This document shows positions 8,476 to 35,178 of a stretch of DNA of 64,000 bases, in pieces. The position numbers were made by a program, and so were the translations under genes. The notes under the pieces were generated by a model. It searched no databases. It saw nothing but the letters and a program-made list of their open reading frames with translations, and was not told the origin of the DNA. Positions within the stretch are counted from its first letter, which is position 1. The number at the start of each line of letters is the position of its first letter. The stretch lies in IMG/VR virus record IMGVR_UViG_3300009514_000009. One strand, given 5' to 3'. This DNA comes from a virus. Its lineage: Duplodnaviria > Heunggongvirae > Uroviricota > Caudoviricetes.

Positions 8476-9165
8476 CTACTCGCCAGCGGGTGCTTTTGAG
8501 CCTTCCTGCCAGCCGACCTTGACCTCGATGCCGAGGCGCTTCGCCACCGCTGCCCAGACGGGCAGGTTGGCCGCGGGGTGGAGGTAGAAGGTCACGTCGA
8601 GGGGCCAGTCGGCATAGTCCTTGGCCCAGCCGAGGGCCACCTCGGCGCACGTCTCGACGGGGCAGCCGTAGACCCCTGCGCTGATGGCGGGGTAGGCGAT
8701 ACTCTTGCAGCCCATGCCCAAGGCCACGAGGGCGGGCATCTTGTAGCACTCGCGCAGTGTCTGACGAGCCAAGTCCTCAGCCCGGACCTCGGTGACGCCG
8801 AACTTCATCTGCATACCCGCGAGGCTGCTCGCTGGGTTGTTGGCGAAGTAGAGGGCGGCATCCGGGTCCGTGGGCCAAACCGGGCCTGCCGTGTGGATGA
8901 CCCAGTGGCAGGGCAGGTTGAACGCGGGAGTTGGGACGGCTCCACCGTTGGGCACACGGATGCTCGTCACGGGCTCCAAGCCCGGCCCGTAGCCCTCTTT
9001 GTGGATGATGGGCAGGAGCTTGCAGGCCTCCCGCAGCCCCGGCCCGGCGGCCTTGTGAATGGCCCCGTCCGCACCCCCACCGCCGAGGCCCTTGTTGTTG
9101 GCTGGGTTGACGATCACGTCGCCGTTGAACGAGCAAATGTCACCTGCGATGAGGGTGATGTTCAT
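8476..9165 (-). CDS. Macro domain protein (ADP-ribose binding and hydrolysis).
   Basis: VNPANNKGLGGGGADGAIHKAAG is the classic macro-domain Gly-rich ADP-ribose pocket. Confidence 0.85.
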   Translation of the reverse strand: MNITLIAGDICSFNGDVIVNPANNKGLGGGGADGAIHKAAGPGLREACKLLPIIHKEGYGPGLEPVTSIRVPNGGAVPTPAFNLPCHWVIHTAGPVWPTDPDAALYFANNPASSLAGMQMKFGVTEVRAEDLARQTLRECYKMPALVALGMGCKSIAYPAISAGVYGCPVETCAEVALGWAKDYADWPLDVTFYLHPAANLPVWAAVAKRLGIEVKVGWQEGSKAPAGE

Positions 9166-9646: not shown

Positions 9647-10648
9647 CTACGGGGCTGGGGCCGGAGCCGGGGCTGGGGCCGGAGCCGGGGCCGGTTCGGC
9701 GGGTGCTCCGGTCGGCTGCTGCTTCTCCGCGGCCTCCTGAGCCTCCTGAATGCGCTTGAGCAACGCGGCGTCGAGGAGCCCTTGCGGCTGCAACCACTTG
9801 CTGGTGTCGAGCCCGTTGTTGGCCGCGTCGGTGTAGGGGATGAGGAACATATTGTTCGCCCCGTTCGCGGCGTCCTCCATCACGTCCCACTGCCGCCACA
9901 TGATGAGCTGCGGGCTCACGCTGGACGCGAGGATGCGGTTGGCGTCCGCCTGTGCCTTGGCCCTCAGCAGAGACGACTGAGCCTCGACACGGGCGAGAGC
10001 CAGCTTGCCTTCGGCCTCAGCCTTGAGTCGCAGGGCTTCCGCGTGGGCCTCCTTGATCTGCACCTCGCGCTCGGCGGCCTTGATCTCGGCGTTGGTCACC
10101 ACGTCGGGGAAGTCGAGGTTGCCCACCGTGACCCGCTTGACCCTGAAGATGCCACCGGAGGTCTTGGCCATCACAGCCGCCTTGACCTCCTCGATGATCT
10201 GGATGCGTTTCTCGACCAGCTCCTTCCGTGCGCTGTACTTGCTCACGATGCCGCGGGCCGTCTCGTCGGCCACGGGCAGCACGTAGGTCTCGTAGAGCTG
10301 CTGCGCCGTGAACACCTTGTTCTCGCCTGCGGGGATGAGGTTCTCGAAGACGTTGGCGACCTGATCGCCCTCCATGTCCACCGCGGCGAGGATGCCGAGG
10401 GTGAACTTGAAGTTGAGCTTGTCGGCGCACAGCACGTCCATCGGGTGGTCGAACTGCCGGTCGCTCGTCTCCATGAGGTACATCTCGCACCGCCCGAAGC
10501 ACGAGTGGCGACCCGGCTTGAGCAGCTCGCCTTGGAAGCCGCCGGGCTCCCATGTGCGGCCCGTGTGGCCCGCGGGGACGATCTTGTTGCAGCCGGTGGC
10601 CAGCAGGGTGAGGCCCAGCAGGGCCATGAGCAGGATCTTGGGGTTCAT
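9647..10648 (-). CDS. SPFH/band-7 (HflK/C, stomatin, prohibitin-like) lipoprotein.
   Basis: Lipobox LLATGC, an SPFH core, a long coiled-coil and a C-terminal (AP)n tail. Confidence 0.8.
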   Translation of the reverse strand: MNPKILLMALLGLTLLATGCNKIVPAGHTGRTWEPGGFQGELLKPGRHSCFGRCEMYLMETSDRQFDHPMDVLCADKLNFKFTLGILAAVDMEGDQVANVFENLIPAGENKVFTAQQLYETYVLPVADETARGIVSKYSARKELVEKRIQIIEEVKAAVMAKTSGGIFRVKRVTVGNLDFPDVVTNAEIKAAEREVQIKEAHAEALRLKAEAEGKLALARVEAQSSLLRAKAQADANRILASSVSPQLIMWRQWDVMEDAANGANNMFLIPYTDAANNGLDTSKWLQPQGLLDAALLKRIQEAQEAAEKQQPTGAPAEPAPAPAPAPAPAPAP

Positions 10649-14054: not shown

Positions 14055-14774
14055 CTACTTGCGGCTGTTGCCCATGATGCGAAGGATGAACAGGAGGAGG
14101 TTGAGGTAGTCGAGGTAGAGCCCAACCGCGTGTCCGGTAGCGGCTCCCCACCCCCGGACCCCGTGCTTGCCGTCGTGGTACAGCCGGGCGAAGTCCGCGA
14201 GGAAGTACAGGACGAACACCACCGCCCCGAGGATGGAGTAGCCCATGTCGATCTCGGTGCTCGGGATGCCCGTGAAGGCAGTCCACACGCCGTAGATGAT
14301 GAGGCCGAACAGGGCCAGCAGCAGTGGCCCTTCCATCTTGCGGTAGGGGATCGTGAAGATGCTCGCCACCGCCCCGCACACGGCCATGATGCCGGTCGTC
14401 AGGCCGATGGCGAAGGTCACCGACCCTGCCCCCAGCGTCTCCGAGTACATCGCGAAACACGGTCCGAGCAGCACGCCCCAGAGGGCTGCAAAGAGGCTCG
14501 CCGGGATCATCGCCGCCCCGTCCTTCTCCATCGCCTTGATGACGAAGATGAGCACGAGCAGGACGACGAAGATGATCCAGAACAGCGGGGTCGGGATCGT
14601 CGCCTCCCATGAGAGCAGGGAGGTCACGGCGGAGATGCCGAGCATCGCCACGAGGCACATCATCGTGCGGGCGAATAACAGGGTGCTCGTGTCCTCGCGC
14701 ATCCGGCGGACGCTGCGATCCACGAAGTCCTCGTTGCGGTCGTAGCTCTCTGCGAGTCGTTGCCAGTCCTGCAT
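14055..14774 (-). CDS. Bax-inhibitor-1/YccA family membrane protein (FtsH modulator family).
   Basis: About 7 TM helices with a BI-1/YccA-like hydrophobic pattern. Start MQDWQRL. Confidence 0.75.
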   Translation of the reverse strand: MQDWQRLAESYDRNEDFVDRSVRRMREDTSTLLFARTMMCLVAMLGISAVTSLLSWEATIPTPLFWIIFVVLLVLIFVIKAMEKDGAAMIPASLFAALWGVLLGPCFAMYSETLGAGSVTFAIGLTTGIMAVCGAVASIFTIPYRKMEGPLLLALFGLIIYGVWTAFTGIPSTEIDMGYSILGAVVFVLYFLADFARLYHDGKHGVRGWGAATGHAVGLYLDYLNLLLFILRIMGNSRK

Positions 14775-14776
14775 CT

Positions 14777-14917
14777 CAGCCCTCCGTGCCGTTGCGGATG
14801 CGGCCCTTGGCGGCACGGCGAACGGCCTTGGCGACGGCACGCTTGCCGAGGCGGTTGTTCACGAAGCCGCGCTTGAAGCTGCGGCCATTGAAGTTGCGGT
14901 CGTTGGGGTCACGCATC
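14777..14917 (-). CDS. Small basic protein (46 aa). Not in the ORF track.
   Basis: A motif copy and GGAGACGACCG precede the ATG. Translation MRDPNDRNFNGRSFKRGFVNNRLGKRAVAKAVRRAAKGRIRNGTEG. Confidence 0.35.
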
Positions 14918-23455: not shown

Positions 23456-23926
23456 CTACTTGCGGAAGGCCTCGACCACCGCGTCAGCCATCCTTTCCAT
23501 CCAGCCGCTGCCCTTGAACTGCTCCGACAGGGCAACGCGGGTCCAGTCCTTGAACCGGGGGAAGTCGTTGAACTGCATCTGCCGAATCTGGTCGAAGCAC
23601 TTCGGGTGCTTGCTCTTGTAGATCGCGATGCAGCGACCTCGCTTGAACCCGTTGTCGTCCACCCCAACGACCACGGCGGTCGCTTCGTCAGGGTCCGTCA
23701 AACAGCGAAGGGCCTCGTGGCCCGGCGAGTGGTGGTAAACCACCAGAGGGAACGGGAGCACGCCGTCCGGCAGCACATCGAGCGTCGGATGCCGTTGCAT
23801 GATCTTGTCCGCGAGGGATGACGCCTCCAATCGGGGCTTGTTTGGGGTGAACCTGAGAGACACCATGAAGGCCGTTTTGCGGTCGTGTCCGCTGGTTCCG
23901 ATGTCGCTTTGGCGAATTGTGATCAT
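23456..23926 (-). CDS. Hypothetical protein.
   Basis: 156 aa. A motif copy lies at 23927-23985. Confidence 0.5.
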   Translation of the reverse strand: MITIRQSDIGTSGHDRKTAFMVSLRFTPNKPRLEASSLADKIMQRHPTLDVLPDGVLPFPLVVYHHSPGHEALRCLTDPDEATAVVVGVDDNGFKRGRCIAIYKSKHPKCFDQIRQMQFNDFPRFKDWTRVALSEQFKGSGWMERMADAVVEAFRK

Positions 23927-24876
23927 GGATCATGTCCTCCTGTTGACGCCTCCACTACTGGCCAACGGCAGGATTTGAGCCCCCCTTCACCAACGCGCTC
24001 GGGCGGCAACCCCATCTCGTTGCAGAGCAGGCGGAGATTGATGCCGCGTGCGCGGAGCCAGCGGTCCCACCGCTTCCAATCATTGTCCATACTCTGGCGG
24101 GGTCGCTTGTTGTGTTCTGCGTAGAAGGCCCGGATCTCGGCTCGGGCACGATCCATCGTGCGGTCCAAATCGAGGCCGCCGGGCAGGTCCATCTCGTCGC
24201 AGAGCAGGCGGAGGGTGGTGCTCTGTTGGGTGCGGAGCCAGCAGTCCCACAAGTGCCACTCCTTGTCGATTGTGGTGGGCCGTTTGTTGTGTTCTGCGTA
24301 GAAGGCCCGGATCTCGGCTTTGGCCCGCTCCATCGTGCGGTTGTAGTCCCTGCCGCCCGGCAAGCCCATCTCGTCGCAGAGCTGGCACAGGCTGGTGTCT
24401 CTCTTACGGAGCCAGTCAGCCCATCGCCGCCATTCGACGTTGACATGCTTGGTTGGTCGGGTGCCGTGTTCTGCGTAGAAGGCCCTGATCTCGGCTCTGG
24501 CCCGGCCCATCGTGCGGTCGTAGTCCCTGCTGCCCGACAGGGCCAGCTCGTTGCAGAGCTGGCTGAGACTGGTGCCCTGCCTGTTCAACCAATCGTCCCA
24601 TTGCCGCCATCTTCTACTGGTCGGGACAGTAGGTCGCCTCCCATGCTCATCGTAGTGGTCTTGGATCTCGGCTCGGGCACGGTCTATCGAGCGGTCGTAG
24701 TCCCTGCCGCCCGGCAAGCCCATCTCATCGCAGACGGTGCGGAGGGTGTGTCCCCATCGACCAAGGGTGAGGTTGACCTGACTCCACCAAGAGCTATCCC
24801 CCTTGAGGGGCCTCTCACCGTATTGGTCGAACCAGATCTGGATGCGAGCACGGGCACAGTCTACCGTGAGTCTCAT
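23923..24876 (-). CDS. Tandem-repeat protein made of five ~60 aa repeats.
   Basis: The unit RDYDRTMxRAxAEIRAFYAEHxxRPT...W..W..WLR...SLxQLCDEMGLPGG recurs five times, giving a ~186 bp DNA periodicity. Confidence 0.6.
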   Translation of the reverse strand: MRLTVDCARARIQIWFDQYGERPLKGDSSWWSQVNLTLGRWGHTLRTVCDEMGLPGGRDYDRSIDRARAEIQDHYDEHGRRPTVPTSRRWRQWDDWLNRQGTSLSQLCNELALSGSRDYDRTMGRARAEIRAFYAEHGTRPTKHVNVEWRRWADWLRKRDTSLCQLCDEMGLPGGRDYNRTMERAKAEIRAFYAEHNKRPTTIDKEWHLWDCWLRTQQSTTLRLLCDEMDLPGGLDLDRTMDRARAEIRAFYAEHNKRPRQSMDNDWKRWDRWLRARGINLRLLCNEMGLPPERVGEGGLKSCRWPVVEASTGGHDP

Positions 24877-25679
24877 CCCTTGCGGACTTGGACCGCGAGC
24901 TTGGGCAGGAACTCCTCGGCCTTGGCCCGGATGTGGGTCATCCCGTCCAGCTCACCCGCGTTCGGGTCGATGTTGAACATGGGCACGGCTGACTGGTAGG
25001 CCGCGGTCATCATCATGTCGGTGATCGTCACCGCGAACGAGGTGCCTGCGAAGATGAGCACCGTCATCTGGTCCATGAGCCGCTCGATATGGTCCATGCC
25101 GTAGGCGTAGTGCCCAGAGTAGCTCTCGTCGAACCACAGGACGTGGGCTCGCAGGTACTTCGCGCACAGCGGGCAGCGAGGCACCGTTTCCAAGCACGGA
25201 TTCTTGCGGAACTCGGCGAGCAAACCTTCGTCCCAGTCGATGAGCCCCTTGGGCGGCCCCTTCTCGCAGTAGCGGTTGGTGCAGCGCATGTACCGAGCCG
25301 CACCATGGCACTCGGTGACGTGGCGGCTGCCAGCCTTGAGGTGTAAGCCGTCCACGTTCTGCGTGATCAGGTCGAACCCCCGGTCCTGCGCCTTGTGCCA
25401 CTGCTCGATGTCGGCGATGGCTTGATGCGCAGGGTTGGGCTCGGCTGCACGGCACTTGTCGAACCGGCTCAAGTACCAGCTCCACGACTGGTCCGGGTGC
25501 CGGAGGAAGAAGGCGTTGGTCCCCTTGTCCAGTACGTCCTGCTCCCACACCGCATCAGCCGTTCCTCGGAACGGGGCGATGCCGGAGGCGATGGAGATAC
25601 CCGCCCCGGTCACGAAGACGGCGTGGGAGTTGTCGGCCCTGAACAGCTCCAGCAGTTGCTCGGTGGCAGTCACACTCAC
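24873..25679 (-). CDS. SIR2-family (CobB-like sirtuin) NAD-dependent deacylase / ADP-ribosyltransferase.
   Basis: GAGISIASGIAPFRG, QNVDGLH and a CxxC...CxxC zinc module. GTG start overlaps the upstream TGA. The ORF-track N-terminus is R-rich artefact. Confidence 0.8.
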   Translation of the reverse strand: MSVTATEQLLELFRADNSHAVFVTGAGISIASGIAPFRGTADAVWEQDVLDKGTNAFFLRHPDQSWSWYLSRFDKCRAAEPNPAHQAIADIEQWHKAQDRGFDLITQNVDGLHLKAGSRHVTECHGAARYMRCTNRYCEKGPPKGLIDWDEGLLAEFRKNPCLETVPRCPLCAKYLRAHVLWFDESYSGHYAYGMDHIERLMDQMTVLIFAGTSFAVTITDMMMTAAYQSAVPMFNIDPNAGELDGMTHIRAKAEEFLPKLAVQVRKG

Positions 25680-26077
25680 TGGAGTGTCTCCCCGCCGACC
25701 TCGGGCAGGGCCTCGGCGGGCACGGCCTCCCCCTCGGCCACGAGCACGTCGAACAGCTTCATGTGGTAGCCATTGCCCGTCTCCTTGGTCCCCTGCCACA
25801 CGATGCGCACAGGGTGGCCCACAGGAGCCAGCGAGGCGTCCATGAGCTGGATGACCCGCGTGCCAGACACCATGTAGCTCCGGTCGAGCGGGACGTGGAC
25901 GATGATGACCTCGTACTGCCCGTGAGGGCCGTCCCGAAGGCTCTTGCCACCGTAGAACCCGACCAGCTCGGTGCCGATCTCCTCGGGCCTCCACGAGATG
26001 GGGGTGGCGACCTGCCGCCACTTGTACTGCTCGCGGATGCGCTCTGCGCTCCGGCTCTCCAACGTCGTGTCGCTCAT
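25676..26077 (-). CDS. Hypothetical protein, translationally coupled to the sirtuin gene.
   Basis: Start MSDTTLESRSAERIREQYK. Confidence 0.5.
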   Translation of the reverse strand: MSDTTLESRSAERIREQYKWRQVATPISWRPEEIGTELVGFYGGKSLRDGPHGQYEVIIVHVPLDRSYMVSGTRVIQLMDASLAPVGHPVRIVWQGTKETGNGYHMKLFDVLVAEGEAVPAEALPEVGGETLQ

Positions 26078-27216: not shown

Positions 27217-28146
27217 CTACCCCTTGGTCGGCTCGACTGGACCCTCCCCGTAGGGGCCGGTCAGGGTGAGGACGTGCTTCGACTCCTCGTCTGCGGCCCG
27301 CAGGAACGTGCAGTTGGCCTTGGGCTCCCCGTTCCCTACCCAGATCGTCCGACCGCTCAGATTGTGGATGGCCTCGTAGCGCAGCGTGTAGTGGTCGTCT
27401 CGGTCCTCGATGCACACGCATGGCCCGAACCGCTTGGACTCCATCCAGTCGCCGGGCTTGATGGGCAGGGGGGCCTCTGCCGCCGTCTGGTACTTGGCGA
27501 TGATGGCCTCGGCCTTGACCCGCAGCTCGTCGAGGGTGCCGTCGTTGATGATGTGCTCGTCCACGATGGCTTGGAACGATGGCTGGAGTCGGGCCGTCTC
27601 GCTGGCGTGCGTCAGCACCTTGGCCTCGACGAGATCTTCAGGGCGCAGCACCTCGATGATGATGCCGCCGACCGCCTCCACTGCCTCGATGTCCCGCAAG
27701 AAACGGCAGTCCGTGATGAGGGCCACTCCGCGGTGGGCCTCCGCCTCCCGAGCGGCCCGCAGGGCATAGATGGCTGGGAAGGTGGCCTCGGCGAACTCGC
27801 CCCCGAGCTGCTGCATCGCGTGGCGTGGGGTAAGCCCGATGTGCCCGGTCGCACCGCAGTGCTGGCAGTCCGTCTGCTTGTTGAACGGGGGGTCGTTGAA
27901 CTGCGCGCTGTACGGCACCTTGCCGCCGCCTCGGCAGCCTTGGCAGGTGACCGGATACCGCTCGTCGGGCACGTCCTTGAGGTCGCCGTCCGTGTGCTCC
28001 TCGGTCCAGTCGAACAGGTCGCGCAGGTACGCCTTGAGTGGCCCCGCGATCTGAATGCGCTTGACGACCCGTCCCGAGGCTTCCCCCAGCATTGTGGCGA
28101 AGGTGTCCTTTCCAGTGCGGGCGCGGCCCGTAATCCCCAAAATCAT
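27217..28146 (-). CDS. Deoxynucleoside-monophosphate kinase-like P-loop protein (T4 gp1-like N-terminus).
   Basis: MILGITGRARTGKDTFA is a Walker A resembling T4 dNMP kinase. The listed N-terminal extension is spurious. Confidence 0.6.
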   Translation of the reverse strand: MILGITGRARTGKDTFATMLGEASGRVVKRIQIAGPLKAYLRDLFDWTEEHTDGDLKDVPDERYPVTCQGCRGGGKVPYSAQFNDPPFNKQTDCQHCGATGHIGLTPRHAMQQLGGEFAEATFPAIYALRAAREAEAHRGVALITDCRFLRDIEAVEAVGGIIIEVLRPEDLVEAKVLTHASETARLQPSFQAIVDEHIINDGTLDELRVKAEAIIAKYQTAAEAPLPIKPGDWMESKRFGPCVCIEDRDDHYTLRYEAIHNLSGRTIWVGNGEPKANCTFLRAADEESKHVLTLTGPYGEGPVEPTKG

Positions 28147-28148
28147 GC

Positions 28149-29126
28149 TCACGCTCCGAGGACTCGGCTGACCCAGCCGGGCTCCTTCATCTTGGTCCGA
28201 AGCTGGCCACGGTACGTCCGGGCCAGTGCTTGCCAGTGATCGAACATACCCTGATCCCAGTGCTGGCCCACGCTCGCACGGATGAGGGCATCGAGCACCT
28301 TCGGACTCAGGGCGTCCAGCTCCCACGCATCGTTGATGCCGTGCTCACGGAAGTAGCCCGCGTAGCGGCTGGAAGACTTCTTGGCCGGGTACGGCGGCGG
28401 GTTGTACTGCCGGATCTGGTCCATGTTGAGGGCCACCCGGATGAACCGGATTGGCGGGATGTCGAGGCCCCAGACGTTGGCGAGGGTGTCGAGGGTGACC
28501 TCAGCCGACCGCGGGATCTGCCAGCCGTCCGGGTCGTGGTCCCCGAAGTAGATCACGACCGCCTCCTCAATCTCCTCGACCTCGATCTCGTCGCCCTCGT
28601 TGTCCTCCACCACGGCTTGGCTGGTCTGGTACGCCTCTTGGAGCTTCTCCAGCCACTGCCACAAGCTGCTGTGGCTCGGGTAGCCCTTGCAGGCGAAGAA
28701 CCCCACCCCCAAGTCCTTGCAGGGCTTCTCGAAGACGCCTGCGAGGGCCTCCTTCTCGACCCACACGGCGACGTACTTGGGCTGGCCGAACCAGCGGTCC
28801 ACCTCGATGGACCAGTGAGGCACCGCACGCAGGTAGTTCTCGGCCTCCCCCAGCGCAGCCGTCACGTCGATCTTGCACTCGTGCTGCTTCGACGGAGCGG
28901 CATCCCGGCCACGGTCCACGAGGAGGTCCATGTCGAACTGACCCGCGAGCCGGGCGTTGCCCAAGGTGTCGCCCAGCCGCTTGTAGCTCTCATTGGAGTT
29001 CGGGATGAGGGCAGCCTTGACGAGCTGGTAGTAGAGCTGCCGCAGGGTCATGTCGTACCCCTGCGACTGGAAGTCCTCTGCGATGTCGCGGGCTGCGTCC
29101 AGCAGGTCGGCTCGGTCCTGAATCAT
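28149..29126 (-). CDS. Topo VI subunit A / Spo11-like protein (Mini-A): winged helix with an RxxYY tyrosine plus a TOPRIM domain.
   Basis: LRQLYYQLV (catalytic Tyr motif), VWVEKEA, ACKGYPS, and IYFGDHDPDGWQI (TOPRIM DxDxxG). Confidence 0.6.
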   Translation of the reverse strand: MIQDRADLLDAARDIAEDFQSQGYDMTLRQLYYQLVKAALIPNSNESYKRLGDTLGNARLAGQFDMDLLVDRGRDAAPSKQHECKIDVTAALGEAENYLRAVPHWSIEVDRWFGQPKYVAVWVEKEALAGVFEKPCKDLGVGFFACKGYPSHSSLWQWLEKLQEAYQTSQAVVEDNEGDEIEVEEIEEAVVIYFGDHDPDGWQIPRSAEVTLDTLANVWGLDIPPIRFIRVALNMDQIRQYNPPPYPAKKSSSRYAGYFREHGINDAWELDALSPKVLDALIRASVGQHWDQGMFDHWQALARTYRGQLRTKMKEPGWVSRVLGA

Positions 29127-29128
29127 GA

Positions 29129-29380
29129 TCAACTCCCCTTGTGGTCGTGCAGGAGCAACTGCATCCGCAGGTACGCCTTGACCGCGTTGCCCTCGTCTGC
29201 GAGCTGGCCCGAGATGTCCTCGACCTGCCCCAACACCCGGAACAGCATCGTGGCAGCGTTCCCGCACAGCTCCTCGGCAGTGAACGAGCTGGCTTCAACC
29301 ACGCGGCGGACGGCGGCCTCCACCGACATGCCGGACTTGAGATGCTTCCAGATGGCTTCGACTGCTTGCTCGATTGTCAT
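29129..29380 (-). CDS. Hypothetical small protein.
   Basis: Start MTIEQAVEAIWKHLKSG. The upstream part of the listed ORF is R-rich. Confidence 0.4.
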   Translation of the reverse strand: MTIEQAVEAIWKHLKSGMSVEAAVRRVVEASSFTAEELCGNAATMLFRVLGQVEDISGQLADEGNAVKAYLRMQLLLHDHKGS

Positions 29381-29604
29381 GGTCCCACCGCCATGTCGTG
29401 GTGCATCGCGACTGCATCGCACTTGGAGCAGGTCGCCGATTCGCCTTGGCACCCCATCACGTCCGTCTCGACCGCTGGGCCGTCCCAGACGTGTTCGCAC
29501 TTGTTCTCGTAGTGCTTCTCCATGCACTCCATGATGGGCAGGCCACACTGCCGCCCGCAGGAGTAGCCGCACTCGCACTTGCACTTGGTGCGTGTACTTG
29601 CCAT
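29377..29604 (-). CDS. Small Cys-rich protein.
   Basis: MASTRTKCKCECGYSCGRQCG...CSKCD. Confidence 0.4.
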   Translation of the reverse strand: MASTRTKCKCECGYSCGRQCGLPIMECMEKHYENKCEHVWDGPAVETDVMGCQGESATCSKCDAVAMHHDMAVGP

Positions 29605-29698
29605 CAGGTGTCCCTCTCTTTCCGGTGCAGCCATCCAGCGAACTTGAGCCCTGCCCCGAAGCCAATGGCCAACATTGCCAGAGACCAGATGGTGGCTA

Positions 29699-31630
29699 TC
29701 ACGGGCGGCCTCCCAGACGGTTCCACATCTCGTCGATGCTGATGACCTCGGTGCCGTACTGGCGAGCCTTCTGGGCCTTGCCCGAGGTGCTGTTCGGGTC
29801 CTTCGTCACGAGGATGTCGAGCCCCTTGCTGACGCTCCCCTTGACCGACCCGCCCTGCGACTCGATGGCGGTCACCATCGTGGCGTCACGGAAGCCGGTC
29901 ATGCAGATCGACTTGTCCGAGAAGGGGCCGGTCGCCTTGGCAGCGATGGTGATGTGGGCACGCAGGCTGGCGATGACGCCGCGGTCGAGCAGGTCCCAGA
30001 AGCCGTCCACGAAGGCCTGCGCCTTCGTGTTGCCAACACCGGGGATGCTCGCCACGTCGGACACCTTGGCCTTGCTCATCTTGTTCAGGCTGTCGAGGCC
30101 CGCGTCCACCAGCGTCTTCGCCATCGACCGACCGATGAGCGGGATGCCCAGCGAGCCGATGAAGACGTGCAGCGGCATGGTCGTCGCAGCGTGCAGGTTG
30201 CGGAAGGCCTTGTCGGCGGTCCCGCCGACCTTCCGACCGCCCATGTCCATCGAGGCGACCACGGCGGGGTCGAGGGTGTAGAGGTCGGCGATGCGCTCGA
30301 CCACGCCCGTCTCGCAGAGCATGTCGATGAGGCTCGTGCCGAAGTGCAGCACCCCCACCTTGGCGATCCAACGCTTGATGGCTCCGCTGATCTGCGACGG
30401 GCAGGAGTCCCCGTTCGGGCAGATGAGGTAGGCACCGTCGCGGACCACGGCGGTCTGGCAGTCAGGACACGCGGTCGGGGTGTGCAGAGCCACGCCCCCG
30501 TTGCTCGCCAGCAGGGCTTCGACGTAGGGGATCACGTCGTTGCGGCGGGCGACCATGATGCCGTCGCCAGCAGCGATGGCCAGGGTCCCGGCGTCGCTGC
30601 ACAGCGTCTCGATGTAGTCGATGTTGTGCAGGCTCGCCTTGGAGACGTTGGCCCCGGCGAGGTTCACCGTGTCGAAGTCCGCGACCGGCGTGAGCCGCCC
30701 GGACTTGCCAACCTGCCAGCGAATGGCCCGCAGGGTGGTCGCCTTCTGAGCGTGCGGGAACTTCAGGGCGCGGGCACCGTTGGGGCGCATGTTCGTGTCG
30801 CCCATCGCCTCGCGGGCGTCCCGGTCGTTCACGTCCACGACCAGCCCGTCGATCTCCCAATCGAGCTTGTCCCGCGACTCGTCCACGTACTTGGTGAAGA
30901 TGCGGATGACGGTCGCGAGATCATCGGCGGGGTGGTGCGGCGGGCAGACGAAGCCCATCTGCTCCAGAGCGAGGATCTCGTGGTGCTTGGTGTCCAGCGG
31001 CACCCCATCGGGGAGGTACTGGTAGGCGACCACCGTGAGGTACTGCGCCTTGGCGTAGTCGGTCTGCCGCTTGGCAGTCCCAGCCGCGGTGTTGCGGGGG
31101 TTCGACTCGCCGGGGAAGTGCGCCTTGAACTTGCTCTTGCGGCAGACGATTTCGCCCCGCACGTTCACGTCGTCCGGGCACGTCGGCGGGAGCACTCGCA
31201 CGGCACCTTCCATCAGGAGCACGTTGCGGGTGATGTCTTCGCCCTCGGCCCCGTCTCCGCGGGTGATGGCAGCCACCAGCTTGCGCTGCCGGTACACGAG
31301 GTCGATGGAGATGCCGTCCAGCTTGTGAGTGATGCACACCGGCTTGCCGGGCCACCACGACCGAAGCTCGTCGTGCCCGTCGCCCGAGGCGGCGTCGAAC
31401 TGGCACTTCTTCAAGCTGCCCATCGGGATGGCATGGGCGGCCTTGGGCCACGACCCGCCCGTGGGGGCAGGGGCACCGATCTTCTGGAGGTGCGGATGGT
31501 TGGGGTCGAGCGCCCGCAGCTCGTCTTCCAGCTTGTCGTAGGCTGCGTCCGACATGATCGGGTTGCCGTTGCGGTAGGCGAGGTTCGCCTCATGCAGCCG
31601 CTTGGCAAGGTCTGTGATCTTGGTGCTCAT
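29699..31630 (-). CDS. ligA: NAD+-dependent DNA ligase.
   Basis: 643 aa. An N-terminal adenylation region (KLDG-type) with HhH and BRCT-like C-terminal parts. The NAD-binding Ia motif AAYDKLEDELRAL is present. Confidence 0.9.
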   Translation of the reverse strand: MSTKITDLAKRLHEANLAYRNGNPIMSDAAYDKLEDELRALDPNHPHLQKIGAPAPTGGSWPKAAHAIPMGSLKKCQFDAASGDGHDELRSWWPGKPVCITHKLDGISIDLVYRQRKLVAAITRGDGAEGEDITRNVLLMEGAVRVLPPTCPDDVNVRGEIVCRKSKFKAHFPGESNPRNTAAGTAKRQTDYAKAQYLTVVAYQYLPDGVPLDTKHHEILALEQMGFVCPPHHPADDLATVIRIFTKYVDESRDKLDWEIDGLVVDVNDRDAREAMGDTNMRPNGARALKFPHAQKATTLRAIRWQVGKSGRLTPVADFDTVNLAGANVSKASLHNIDYIETLCSDAGTLAIAAGDGIMVARRNDVIPYVEALLASNGGVALHTPTACPDCQTAVVRDGAYLICPNGDSCPSQISGAIKRWIAKVGVLHFGTSLIDMLCETGVVERIADLYTLDPAVVASMDMGGRKVGGTADKAFRNLHAATTMPLHVFIGSLGIPLIGRSMAKTLVDAGLDSLNKMSKAKVSDVASIPGVGNTKAQAFVDGFWDLLDRGVIASLRAHITIAAKATGPFSDKSICMTGFRDATMVTAIESQGGSVKGSVSKGLDILVTKDPNSTSGKAQKARQYGTEVISIDEMWNRLGGRP

Positions 31631-33624: not shown

Positions 33625-35178
33625 ATGGCAGCGAAGATCATCGAGAGCGTCACCCTCAACTTCACCGACCTCACCGGAGCCAAGACCGGCTGCACCACGC
33701 TGGGCAGCAACAAGTTCTGGAAGGGCTGGGTCGAAGACAACGGGGACGGCACTGGCAACTTCTGCTGCCAGTGGGGATCTACCGGCACCGCTGGGAGCAC
33801 CAACGGCTCCAAGCACGGCATCCCCCTAGCGACCGCGATCAAGAAGTTCAAATCCAAGCGCAATGAGAAGCTCAGGAAGGAGTACACCGAGCTTCAGGTC
33901 CGCGACGACGCGGAGGAAGCCGCCAAGCAGGCCGCCGCGGGCGTCGTGCCTGTCGCCGCGCCCAAGGCCACCATGGCCCCCAAGGCCGTCGTGAGCCGCA
34001 CGTTCCACCCGGACGTGAGCCGCCTGCTCGGCACCATCTACGGCTCGACCGCCAACACGGTTCGTGGTGGCCTCTCGGCGCAGGCCGGGTCCACCGACGA
34101 GAACCCCATCGGCAACCTGAGCGACAGCCAGCTCAACGTCGGCGGTGGCATCCTCGACGAGATCGAAGCCCTGCTCCAGCAGCAGTTCGGGCGGGAGGAC
34201 GCGACCAACAAGACCATGACCCTGCCGCTGGGCCGCGACGGGCTGCCCACGGCCCGCGTCATCGAGCTGACCAACGAGTACATGAGCAACGTCCCCCGGA
34301 GCATCGCCCGCGAGGACCGGGGCCGACGCAACCTGCACAAGCTCGTCGTGAGCAGCTACGAGCGGTTGGAGGAACAGCGCAAGTTCCTCCAGCTCCTCCG
34401 CGACGCCCACGTCTCCAAGGCCGTGTTCGCGCAGGCTGCCCAGCAGACCTCGACCGGCAACAAGGAGGTCGTGTGGTACGACGGGCTCGGCTGCGACATC
34501 AAGGCCCTGTCCCCGAGCGACCCCGGCTACAAGTTCGTGGCCGAAGTGTTCAACACTGCGCAGTCCAAGCACAACGCCAACTGGTTCCGCGGTGGCCGCT
34601 GCATCCTGCGGCTGGTCCGGGTCTACAAGTTCACCCGGCAGGGCACCGAGACCGCCTTCGACGCCTACGGCAAGACCGTGACCGCGAAGCGCGGGGCGAC
34701 CGGGCAGGTCTTCGCGTGGCACGGGACGCGGACGCCGAACCTGCTGGGCATCAGCAAGTCCGGGCTCCTCATGCCCGAGAACCTGCCCCGAGGCGTCCAC
34801 ATCAGCGGCAAGGCCTTCGGGCGCGGCATCTACCATGCCCCCGCGTGGAATGCGACGGGCACGGCGAAGGTCGGCCAGCACAAGACGGACGGCACCAACG
34901 GTGCCCTGAAGTCGATGAACTACACGGGCGTCGGCGGGGCCTACTACGGCGGCAACGACCGGGGCAACGCCTTCATGTACCTGCAAGAGCTGGCTCTCGG
35001 CACCCCCGAGGTCCGGCACTCGGCCTGCTGGGACCAGCACCGCCCCAAGGGGTTCCCGCAGAACGACTGGATCTACGCCAACGCGGGCGGCTGCCACAGC
35101 CTCACCCACGATGAGGTCGTCACCTTCGACGAGCGGGCGCAGATCTTCCGCTACCTCGTCGAGGTAGCGGTCGGCTGA
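33625..35178 (+). CDS. PARP-like ADP-ribosyltransferase with an N-terminal WGR domain.
   Basis: WGR region SNKFWKGWVE...CCQWGSTGTAG. The catalytic region has FAWHGTRTPNLLGISKSGL (H-G-S/T), GKAFGRGIYHA (Tyr), and HDEVVTFDERAQIFRYLVEV (catalytic Glu region). Confidence 0.8.
   Translation: MAAKIIESVTLNFTDLTGAKTGCTTLGSNKFWKGWVEDNGDGTGNFCCQWGSTGTAGSTNGSKHGIPLATAIKKFKSKRNEKLRKEYTELQVRDDAEEAAKQAAAGVVPVAAPKATMAPKAVVSRTFHPDVSRLLGTIYGSTANTVRGGLSAQAGSTDENPIGNLSDSQLNVGGGILDEIEALLQQQFGREDATNKTMTLPLGRDGLPTARVIELTNEYMSNVPRSIAREDRGRRNLHKLVVSSYERLEEQRKFLQLLRDAHVSKAVFAQAAQQTSTGNKEVVWYDGLGCDIKALSPSDPGYKFVAEVFNTAQSKHNANWFRGGRCILRLVRVYKFTRQGTETAFDAYGKTVTAKRGATGQVFAWHGTRTPNLLGISKSGLLMPENLPRGVHISGKAFGRGIYHAPAWNATGTAKVGQHKTDGTNGALKSMNYTGVGGAYYGGNDRGNAFMYLQELALGTPEVRHSACWDQHRPKGFPQNDWIYANAGGCHSLTHDEVVTFDERAQIFRYLVEVAVG

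What the first reader, a model, noticed from the sequence alone, without database searches (positions are those of the whole stretch)
28149..29126. Stand-alone Topo VI-A / Spo11-like ('Mini-A') protein with no adjacent GHKL B subunit
The winged-helix motif with the RQLYYQL tyrosine, together with the TOPRIM signature (VWVEKEA, KGYP, FGDHDPDG), matches the DNA-cleaving A subunit of type IIB topoisomerases. No Bergerat-fold ATPase gene is adjacent; the flanking genes are a dNMP-kinase-like gene and small ORFs. Stand-alone A-subunit homologs in mobile elements are poorly characterised and may act as nucleases, in replication initiation, or in recombination.
Basis: partly seen in the sequence, partly recalled or inferred. 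Interest (0 to 1): 0.7.

Follow-up and report, generated by a model that had tools for sequence, protein, structure and literature searches.

The report
Phage Mini-A (partnerless Topo VI-A homologue)

Summary

Every tested defining feature of Mini-A (Takahashi et al. 2019/2020) is met, and the protein is homologous to that paper's reference Mini-A, phage NP1 gp49. No Topo VI-B-like ATPase lies in the 64-kb window or in relatives' flanks; the only GHKL domain belongs to a sensor histidine kinase 29 kb away.

The protein is therefore a new member of a known family whose function is still untested. The family is large (about 9,500 clusters at 50% identity) and almost confined to viruses.

A new clue came from related sequences. 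In 29 complete 4.6-kb circular virus-like genomes, Mini-A is the largest gene and the only protein any library recognises. This argues that it works without a B subunit and probably acts in replication initiation or processing, through covalent tyrosine-mediated cleavage and rejoining. That mechanism is inferred, not shown.

The parts
28149..29126 (-). Mini-A coding sequence (325 aa plus TGA stop)
   Evidence: ORF; start supported by the SD site and by homologue lengths; PHROG 6247 E=2.7e-71; AF2 pLDDT 91.7
28809..29126 (-). N-terminal 5Y-CAP-like / winged-helix part (about residues 1-106); it lacks the N-terminal half of the Topo VI-A 5Y-CAP that binds the B subunit
29028..29042 (-). R29-Q-L-Y32-Y33: the RxxYY motif with the predicted catalytic Tyr33 (codon 29030-29028)
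   Evidence: R29 and Y33 are invariant in 35/35 homologues and in all 29 circle and 21 phage Mini-As; the motif is defined in PMC7671362
28308..28790 (-). Toprim domain (about residues 113-273)
28755..28757 (-). Glu124 codon (VWVEKEA), the predicted metal-binding Toprim glutamate
   Evidence: Invariant and in 75/76 sequences (1 gap); inteins are inserted 1-3 residues before it in P0242 and P0343
28524..28541 (-). D196-H-D198-P-D200-G201: the DxDxxG metal-binding motif
   Evidence: D196, D198 and G201 are invariant in 76/76 sequences and 35/35
28308..28325 (-). W268-E-L-D-A-L273: the WELDAL 'T2BI' box that distinguishes Mini-A from Topo VI and Topo VIII
   Evidence: Invariant; present in all 29 circle Mini-As and conserved in the 21 phage Mini-As (one has I at L273), and absent from the distant subgroup L052-L078; defined in PMC7671362
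29133..29140 (-). Shine-Dalgarno-like AAGGGGAG, 6 nt upstream of the ATG
   Evidence: Read directly from the sequence
29129..29380 (-). Upstream 83-aa ORF, translationally coupled (its stop is 2 nt before the Mini-A ATG); not a conserved partner
   Evidence: no Pfam or PHROG hit; not homologous to the upstream small ORFs of other Mini-A loci
29377..29634 (-). Cys-rich 85-aa ORF in the same operon
   Evidence: Coding-like GC3 of 0.80; function unknown
29699..31630 (-). NAD-dependent DNA ligase (LigA-like) at the head of the same-strand gene block
   Evidence: Pfam DNA_ligase_aden 5e-36, OB, HHH, BRCT; a ligase also lies upstream of Mini-A in relatives L001, L079, the JGI 399-kb contig and NP1
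27217..28146 (-). dNMP kinase with a CXXCXGXG zinc-finger insert; its ATG is 2 nt after the Mini-A stop
   Evidence: PF21448 E=1.8e-10 and DnaJ_CXXCXGXG E=4.7e-5, the latter below Pfam's cut-off; PHROG 139; a DNMK lies downstream of Mini-A in L001 and L079 as well

Best explanation
The gene encodes a Mini-A protein. Mini-A is the virus-borne third subfamily of type IIB topoisomerase A-subunit homologues. Here it is expressed from a tightly coupled operon (NAD-ligase, two small ORFs, Mini-A, dNMP kinase) in the replication and nucleotide-metabolism region of a huge-phage-like genome. What is shown: the fold, full conservation of the catalytic set, the absence of any Topo VI-B-like ATPase nearby, and the viral context. 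What is inferred: the protein works without a dedicated B subunit, as a homodimer whose two hybrid active sites pair Tyr33 of one protomer with the Glu124/Asp196/Asp198 Mg2+ site of the other. These sites would cut DNA and leave the protein covalently joined to the 5' phosphate, with a free 3'-OH, and the enzyme could reseal the break. Its most likely job is to make and reseal programmed nicks or double-strand breaks in the viral genome. These would start or process replication, by providing a 3'-OH primer or a recombinogenic end or by resolving intermediates, rather than supporting ATP-driven strand passage.
Against: No biochemical activity has been reported for any Mini-A, and reviews up to December 2024 call its role unexplored. 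Archaeal Topo VI-A does not cleave without its B subunit (established knowledge), so autonomy is not guaranteed. The rest of this genome is unseen and could encode a divergent partner. No neighbour family recurs across lineages, so the context gives a theme, not a pathway. The circles' six unknown proteins could include an unrecognised initiator; the 196-aa protein, with a weak ribbon-helix-helix match and a Cys-rich motif, is a candidate origin binder. Dimerisation and the trans active site were not modelled. The Foldseek global TM-score is only about 0.3, so the domain arrangement in the monomer model differs from Topo VI-A crystal structures.
Confidence: 0.55

Rival explanations
1. It is the A subunit of a genuine ATP-dependent type IIB topoisomerase. 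Its B partner ('Mini-B') would be too divergent to recognise, encoded elsewhere in the unseen part of the genome, or supplied by the host.
For: Topo VI and Topo VIII always pair the A module with a GHKL/transducer module. Only 64 kb of what is probably a 100-500 kb genome is visible. Many window proteins have no annotation.
Against: [quoted passage not shown] No GHKL domain other than a classical PAS-HisKA sensor kinase occurs in the window, and none occurs in any relative's flank. The 4.6-kb circles have no room for a B subunit of 400 aa or more, and none of their proteins matched an ATPase family. From general knowledge, most bacterial hosts lack Topo VI-B.
Confidence: 0.12
2. It is a hydrolytic Toprim nuclease that works like JetD/MksG or OLD-family enzymes. 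It would degrade host or competitor DNA, for host takeover, anti-defence or competition between elements, without a covalent intermediate.
Against: JetD's CAP domain lacks the catalytic tyrosine, whereas Arg29 and Tyr33 are invariant across more than 80 Mini-As, including very divergent ones. The genes lie among replication and recombination genes rather than early host-takeover genes. A 4.6-kb virus whose only recognisable enzyme destroyed host DNA would be unusual.
Confidence: 0.12
3. It is a site-specific breakage-and-rejoining enzyme used late in replication. It would resolve concatemers or dimers, decatenate daughter genomes, or generate genome ends, rather than initiate replication.
For: It uses the same chemistry as the best explanation. 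Several loci have a DNA ligase and recombination genes next to Mini-A. Circular replicons need dimer resolution or decatenation.
Against: For small circular replicons the single encoded enzyme is normally the initiator, and host Xer and Topo IV handle resolution (established knowledge). The sequence data do not separate early from late roles.
Confidence: 0.13
4. It is a catalytically inert DNA-binding or architectural protein derived from a topoisomerase; some phage annotations call it a 'DNA binding protein'.
For: Microbacterium phages Fizzles and Wilca annotate the homologue as a DNA binding protein. No activity has been reported for any Mini-A.
Against: Strict invariance of Tyr33, Arg29, Glu124, Asp196, Asp198 and Gly201 down to 30% identity is what an active site looks like. 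Intein homing into the Glu124 motif points the same way.
Confidence: 0.03

Closest known systems
Mini-A subfamily of type IIB topoisomerase A-subunit homologues (Takahashi et al., NAR Genom Bioinform 2019/2020, PMC7671362); reference member Pseudomonas phage NP1 gp49
   Same: About 300-aa size, a truncated 5Y-CAP with RxxYY, the Toprim E and DxDxxG, the xWELDAL box, a viral genome and no B subunit. It is directly homologous to NP1 gp49 (35% identity, E=2e-38) and belongs to PHROG 6247.
   Different: It is only 30-39% identical to Mini-As of cultured phages. It belongs to a high-GC clade found on 97-518 kb contigs that look like huge phages, with a conserved NAD-ligase ... Mini-A ... dNMP kinase ... 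Sir2 block. It has a variable acidic insert (residues 171-187) in the Toprim domain.
Topoisomerase VI subunit A / Spo11
   Different: There is no detectable sequence-profile similarity to PDB Topo VI-A or Spo11 and no Pfam hit. It lacks the N-terminal 5Y-CAP segment that binds the B subunit, has no B or B-like partner, has the WELDAL box, and has a different relative domain orientation in the model (TM about 0.3).
Topoisomerase VIII (plasmid-borne fused or split B-A type IIB enzymes)
   Same: It is carried by a mobile element, has a truncated 5Y-CAP, and has the same Toprim motifs.
   Different: Topo VIII has a Bergerat-fold ATPase plus a transducer, an RVELNAM box instead of WELDAL, and a conserved Arg three residues after the Tyr. 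The window protein reads Y33-Q-L-V.
JetD / MksG nuclease of Wadjet / MksBEFG anti-plasmid systems
   Same: A CAP-like domain plus a Toprim domain with a Topo VI-A-like fold and acidic metal ligands. It is the second-best structural hit.
   Different: JetD lacks the catalytic tyrosine and depends on the JetABC SMC complex. Mini-A keeps the tyrosine and has no SMC genes nearby.
HUH and Rep_trans rolling-circle replication initiators (functional analogy only)
   Same: These are tyrosine- and metal-dependent enzymes that become linked to the 5' phosphate and release a 3'-OH primer, and they are typically the only enzyme of small circular replicons. Mini-A occupies that position in the 4.6-kb circles.
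   Different: The folds are unrelated, and no nicking activity or origin has been shown for Mini-A. The analogy is an inference.

Membership tests
Mini-A (PMC7671362) | About 300 aa, clearly shorter than the roughly 400-aa Topo VI-A | tested here: met
   325 aa from the SD-preceded ATG; homologues are 305-350 aa
Mini-A (PMC7671362) | Only the second part of the 5Y-CAP is present; the N-terminal B-interacting part is absent | tested here: met
   Only 28 residues (one helix) precede the catalytic helix in the sequence and the model
Mini-A (PMC7671362) | A catalytic tyrosine in an R-x-x-[Y/F]-Y motif | tested here: met
   R29-Q-L-Y32-Y33; R29 and Y33 are invariant in all homologues examined
Mini-A (PMC7671362) | Toprim metal-binding E followed by DxDxxG | tested here: met
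   [not shown]
Mini-A (PMC7671362) | A C-terminal T2BI box with the xWELDAL signature, which discriminates Mini-A from Topo VI and Topo VIII | tested here: met
   A267-WELDAL-273, invariant in 35/35 sequences
Mini-A (PMC7671362) | No Bergerat-fold B subunit in the genomic neighbourhood | tested here: met
   All window ORFs of 295 aa or more were scanned; the only GHKL domain is in a PAS-HisKA sensor kinase 29 kb away; none in relatives' flanks. The rest of the genome was not visible.
Mini-A (PMC7671362) | Encoded by a virus or provirus | tested here: met
   The window has 37 PHROG families including an endolysin. Relatives occur on IMG/VR viral contigs and on 97-518 kb phage-like contigs. Only 9 hits were found in 185,579 species genomes, all on MAG contigs. 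No capsid or terminase was seen among the families listed for this 64-kb piece.
Mini-A (PMC7671362) | Homology to a published reference Mini-A | tested here: met
   NP1 gp49 is used as 'Ppha' in the paper's alignment. tblastn gives 35% identity over 90% of the query, E=2e-38, and the A1 profile scores NP1 gp49 at 6.7e-68.
Topo VI-A / Spo11 proper | A full 5Y-CAP including the N-terminal B-binding segment, and a match to the Pfam TP6A_N and TOP6A-Spo11_Toprim models | tested here: not met
   No Pfam hit at E<=1. There is no profile hit to PDB Topo VI-A or Spo11 sequences. The N-terminal segment is absent.
Topo VI-A / Spo11 proper | An obligate GHKL or GHKL-like B partner (Top6B / TOPOVIBL) | tested here: not met
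   None in the window or in relatives' flanks
Topo VIII | A fused or adjacent Bergerat ATPase plus transducer, and an RVELNAM box | tested here: not met
   A single 325-aa A-type module with WELDAL instead of RVELNAM
JetD / MksG (Wadjet nuclease) | A CAP domain without a catalytic tyrosine, and a jetABC/mksBEF operon context | tested here: not met
   The tyrosine is present and invariant. No SMC, kleisin or KITE genes were found among the window ORFs scanned.
Type IIB topoisomerase activity (any subfamily) | Mg2+-dependent double-strand cleavage with a 5'-phosphotyrosyl intermediate and a 2-nt stagger | not testable with these tools
   This needs biochemistry; none has been reported for Mini-A

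The most novel reading that the evidence does not exclude
Mini-A is a replication-initiator class of its own. On this reading it is a Toprim/tyrosine enzyme that, without any ATPase partner, nicks or breaks the viral origin, becomes covalently linked to the 5' end, and releases a 3'-OH to start rolling-circle or recombination-dependent replication. It would be a type IIB-topoisomerase-derived analogue of HUH Rep proteins. The strongest hint is a previously undescribed (in the literature I could search) group of 4.6-kb circular virus-like genomes. They carry a candidate double-jelly-roll capsid protein, and Mini-A is their only recognisable enzyme. The huge-phage copy in this window would perform the same reaction on a much larger genome.
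Probability: 0.3. Interest if true: 0.75.

Novelty: new member of a known kind. Interest (0 to 1): 0.4.

Why it matters
Mini-A is the least understood branch of the type IIB topoisomerase/Spo11 superfamily. No activity, structure or phenotype has been published for it, and its discoverers proposed that a stand-alone A protein of this kind may resemble the ancestor of Topo VI and Spo11. This window adds a well-conserved, high-GC member from a huge-phage-like genome, with a defined operon context. The comparative work done here has two consequences. First, the family is very large and essentially viral. Second, it can be the only recognisable enzyme of a 4.6-kb replicon. That makes the questions 'does it need a partner?' and 'is it a replication initiator?' directly testable in a minimal system. 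If Mini-A cleaves and reseals DNA on its own, it would be a simple prokaryotic model for Spo11-type break formation. It would also be a possible handle on the replication of Pseudomonas, Salmonella and Xylella phages that are relevant to phage therapy. The finding as given, however, re-identifies a known family.

Tried and rejected
1. A conserved small partner ('Mini-B'). The translationally coupled small ORF upstream of Mini-A looked recurrent in the window, L001, L002, NP1 gp50 and BP12C gp27. All-against-all phmmer found no homology between lineages, only within the 4.6-kb circle group. Rejected.

2. A conserved neighbour family. BLASTP clustering of all ORFs within 7 kb either side in 49 loci gave no family present in more than 5 loci, apart from antisense ORFs inside Mini-A. 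A PHROG scan of 132 flanking genes gave a replication, recombination and nucleotide theme, but no family occurred more than twice.

3. The GHKL domain in the window. It belongs to a PAS-PAS-HisKA-HATPase_c sensor kinase 29 kb away, not to a Topo VI-B-like protein.

4. Sequence-level links to solved structures. phmmer and a family profile against PDB sequences found nothing meaningful, and Pfam found nothing for the window protein. Only fold comparison and sub-threshold Pfam hits of other family members link it to Topo VI-A, Spo11 and JetD.

5. Identifying the source genome. Megablast of 6 kb against 50,697 phage records gave no match. A genome-contig scan with the single protein gave none, and with the family profile gave only 9 distant MAG contigs.

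6. Functional hints from fusions. The longer family members are intein-containing (P0242, P0343, L078) or have extensions with no Pfam match. No informative domain fusion was found.

7. An origin-like repeat near the window gene. None was found; the only repeat inside the gene encodes its acidic insert.

8. TAG recoding, suggested by the tRNA with anticodon CTA. The in-frame read-through rate of TAG-terminated genes (8 of 22) equals the 1-in-3 chance expectation. The low TGA rate is explained by ATGA/GTGA overlaps. Not supported.

Full report
THE OBSERVATION. The minus strand carries an ORF from 28149 to 29267 if counted from the first GTG. AAGGGGAG lies at 29140-29133, 6 nt upstream. The stop codon of the preceding 83-aa ORF ends 2 nt before the ATG. 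The homologues are 305-350 aa and align from this methionine. The frame has the codon-position GC of a real gene in this 65% GC sequence: GC1/2/3 = 0.69/0.43/0.83. It also contains AWELDAL near the C-terminus.

WHAT THE PROTEIN IS. Pfam finds nothing even at E<=1. Neither the single sequence nor a 35-member profile finds any solved structure by sequence. PHROGs places the protein in family 6247, 'DNA topoisomerase', at E=2.7e-71. tblastn finds homologues in 79 phage records, all below 60% identity. They include Pseudomonas NP1/PaMx25-like phages, Chi-like Salmonella phages, Xylella Sano/Salvo, Roseobacter RDJL phages, Brevundimonas and Microbacterium phages, and the archaeal virus HCIV-1. The word-indexed search of the large protein collection finds 2,576 proteins at E<=1e-5. 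An exhaustive profile search of 1.84 billion cluster representatives finds 9,499 at E<=1e-3 and 5,243 at E<=1e-10, almost all of 290-400 aa.

CONSERVATION OF THE CATALYTIC RESIDUES. In an alignment of 35 homologues spanning 44-92% identity, the invariant columns include R29, Y32, Y33, E124, K125, G195-D-H-D-P-D-G201 and W268-E-L-D-A-L273. In a wider set of 76 viral sequences, R29, Y33, E124, D196, D198 and G201 are kept in every sequence where the region aligns.

FAMILY MEMBERSHIP. Takahashi et al. (PMC7671362) defined 'Mini-A' as proteins of about 300 aa from bacterial and archaeal viruses with the following features:
- homology to type IIB A subunits;
- no N-terminal, B-binding part of the 5Y-CAP;
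- the Rxx[Y/F]Y tyrosine and the Toprim E plus DxDxxG;
- a discriminating xWELDAL box;
- no Bergerat-fold gene nearby.
The window protein meets every one of these. It is also homologous to the paper's own reference Mini-A, phage NP1 gp49 (35% identity over 90% of the query, E=2e-38). It fails the tests for Topo VI-A/Spo11 proper because it has no N-terminal segment, no Pfam match and no B partner. It fails the test for Topo VIII because it has no ATPase and has WELDAL rather than RVELNAM. It fails the test for JetD/MksG because JetD lacks the tyrosine, whereas here the tyrosine is invariant.

SURROUNDINGS. Mini-A lies in a same-strand block: NAD-dependent DNA ligase (29699..31630), two small ORFs, Mini-A, and then a dNMP kinase with a zinc-finger insert whose ATG is 2 nt after the Mini-A stop. 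I scanned every ORF of 295 aa or more in the 64-kb window with Pfam. The only GHKL domain belongs to a PAS-PAS-HisKA-HATPase_c sensor kinase at 58001..59800, 29 kb away, which is not a Topo VI-B-like protein. The window carries 37 PHROG families, including an endolysin and nucleotide kinases, but none of the 25 listed is a capsid or terminase family.

The closest relatives (60-77% identity) lie on metagenomic contigs of 97, 331, 399 and 518 kb that are full of small unknown ORFs. These contigs keep the same block, NAD-ligase ... Mini-A ... dNMP kinase ... Sir2, and a WGR-PARP gene lies nearby on two of them. The 518-kb contig also carries Cas5 and Cas7 genes in the retrieved flank. This is the signature of a huge phage. 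Among 185,579 species-representative genomes, only 9 MAG contigs carry a relative, at 44% identity or less. The family is therefore essentially viral.

CONTEXT IN OTHER VIRUSES. In NP1 the gene order is ThyX, ATP-dependent ligase, a small ORF, Mini-A, Sak4, a Cas4-type exonuclease and a helicase. In Microbacterium phage Fizzles a Cas4 exonuclease precedes Mini-A and MazG follows it. In Chi-like BP12C, ThyX follows it. A PHROG scan of 132 genes flanking Mini-A in 22 loci returns DNA polymerases, ligases, primase/helicase, DnaB, exonucleases, Sak4, thymidylate synthases and dNMP kinases. No single family recurs across lineages. The small upstream ORFs, although translationally coupled in several lineages, are unrelated to each other. 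The context therefore gives a theme of replication, recombination and nucleotide supply, and does not reveal a fixed partner.

A CLUE FROM TINY GENOMES. The IMG/VR scan turned up 29 contigs of 4.67-4.87 kb, each with a direct terminal repeat of 27-144 bp, which means they are closed circles of 4,554-4,727 bp. All 29 share seven core genes. Mini-A (306-332 aa) is the largest. A protein of about 196 aa, with a weak ribbon-helix-helix match and a Cys-rich motif, lies on the same strand. Five genes lie on the other strand. Only Mini-A matches any Pfam or PHROG family. Its catalytic set and WELDAL box are intact in all 29.

Immediately upstream of Mini-A, every circle has a TTGACC-like box, then a microsatellite whose unit differs between lineages ((TAG)n, (GA)n or (ATAG)n) but whose position is fixed, and then an AT-rich block. 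A replicon this small has no room for a Topo VI-B-like ATPase. The one enzyme that a small circular replicon encodes is normally its replication initiator (established knowledge).

INTEINS. Two family members carry a complete Hint plus LAGLIDADG intein inserted 1-3 residues before the Toprim glutamate. One of them, P0242, belongs to the window protein's own clade. A distant relative, L078, has a LAGLIDADG insertion. To my knowledge inteins home into essential active-site motifs of replication and repair enzymes, so this is consistent with a working active site.

HOW IT MOST LIKELY WORKS. Four things are shown: the fold, the invariant Tyr/Arg/Glu/Asp set, the absence of an ATPase partner in every context examined, and the replication-module and minimal-replicon contexts. 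The mechanism is inferred, as follows. Mini-A dimerises through its Toprim domains and forms two hybrid active sites. It cuts DNA with Tyr33 to give a 5'-phosphotyrosyl link and a free 3'-OH, and it can reseal the break. The nearest experimental precedent is mouse SPO11. Alone, it cleaves DNA, stays attached to the 5' ends and reseals nicks, provided it dimerises (PMC11922746). I think the biological role is to start or process viral genome replication. I give the overall explanation 0.55.

The rivals are:
- a hidden B subunit (0.12);
- a JetD-like hydrolytic nuclease (0.12);
- a late resolution or decatenation role (0.13);
- an inert DNA binder (0.03).
No biochemical data exist for any Mini-A, and reviews up to December 2024 call its role unexplored. 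My literature searches found no later experimental work.

VERDICT. The finding is real and correctly interpreted, but it re-identifies a family published in 2019, so it is a new member of a known kind. Its interest comes from the family's unknown function and from the 4.6-kb circle lead, which lies outside the window. I score interest at 0.40. The most novel reading still open is that Mini-A is a topoisomerase-derived replication initiator that acts on its own. I give that a probability of about 0.3, and it would deserve about 0.75 if true.

Noticed in passing
[not shown]
   Followed up: partly
About 170 bp upstream of Mini-A in each circle (e.g. L025:2600-2781): The intergenic architecture is conserved: a TTGACC-like box, then a short-period purine-rich microsatellite whose unit varies by lineage ((TAG)n, (GA)n or (ATAG)n) at a fixed position, then an AT-rich block (AAAATAATACA). 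It is origin-like or a divergent promoter region; no function has been tested.
   Followed up: partly
P0242 (689 aa), P0343 (712 aa), L078:6507-8570: Some Mini-A genes are interrupted by inteins (Hint plus LAGLIDADG) inserted 1-3 residues before the Toprim catalytic glutamate...YVSVW|intein|CEKEA... and ...RVE|intein|CWVEKD.... P0242's exteins belong to the window protein's clade.
   Followed up: partly
window 8476-9165(-), 24873-25700(-), 29699-31630(-), 33625-35178(+), 60677-61699(-): The window holds a striking set of NAD+/ADP-ribose-related genes in a phage-like genome: a Macro domain protein, a Sir2 protein, an NAD-dependent ligase, a eukaryote-like WGR plus PARP_reg plus PARP catalytic protein, and a second protein with a sub-threshold WGR match. 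Relatives on the 331-kb and 399-kb contigs carry the same PARP-like gene near Mini-A.
   Followed up: no
window 56491-56567(-): This is the only tRNA in the window. Its anticodon is CTA (it would read TAG; ARAGORN labels it 'Pyl'), so it looks like a suppressor. 22 of 70 gene calls end in TAG and 8 of them continue in frame into the next ORF, but that equals the 1-in-3 chance expectation, so TAG recoding is not supported.
   Followed up: partly
window 58001-59800(-), 9647-10648(-), 14055-14840(-): Three cell-like genes are unusual for a phage: a PAS-PAS-HisKA-HATPase_c sensor histidine kinase, an SPFH/Band 7 protein and a Bax-inhibitor-1 family membrane protein.
   Followed up: no
L001:3327-6065 and L079:776-5509: In close relatives the NAD-dependent ligase is split into an adenylation/OB part and an HHH/BRCT part, separated by one or more inserted genes that include a Tn7 TnsA-like endonuclease. 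In the window the ligase is intact at 643 aa.
   Followed up: no
window 23923-24876(-): This 317-aa protein is built from roughly three and a half tandem copies of a 59-aa unit (177-bp DNA repeats, 76% identical). It has a weak hit to the Pfam 'homing endonuclease associated repeat'.
   Followed up: no
window 27217-28146(-): The dNMP kinase downstream of Mini-A has a DnaJ-type CXXCXGXG zinc-finger segment (residues 64-103, E=4.7e-5, below Pfam's cut-off) inserted in the kinase fold, plus a C-terminal extension of about 100 aa with no match.
   Followed up: no
L052-L078 (IMG/VR loci): This is a distant subgroup of about 340-aa proteins, 19-25% identical to the query. It keeps the Toprim E and DxDxDG, and the R...Y motif wherever that region aligns (17 of 26), but lacks the WELDAL box and has Trp instead of Tyr at position 149. 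It is probably a separate, unnamed branch of stand-alone A-type proteins, with no Pfam match.
   Followed up: partly
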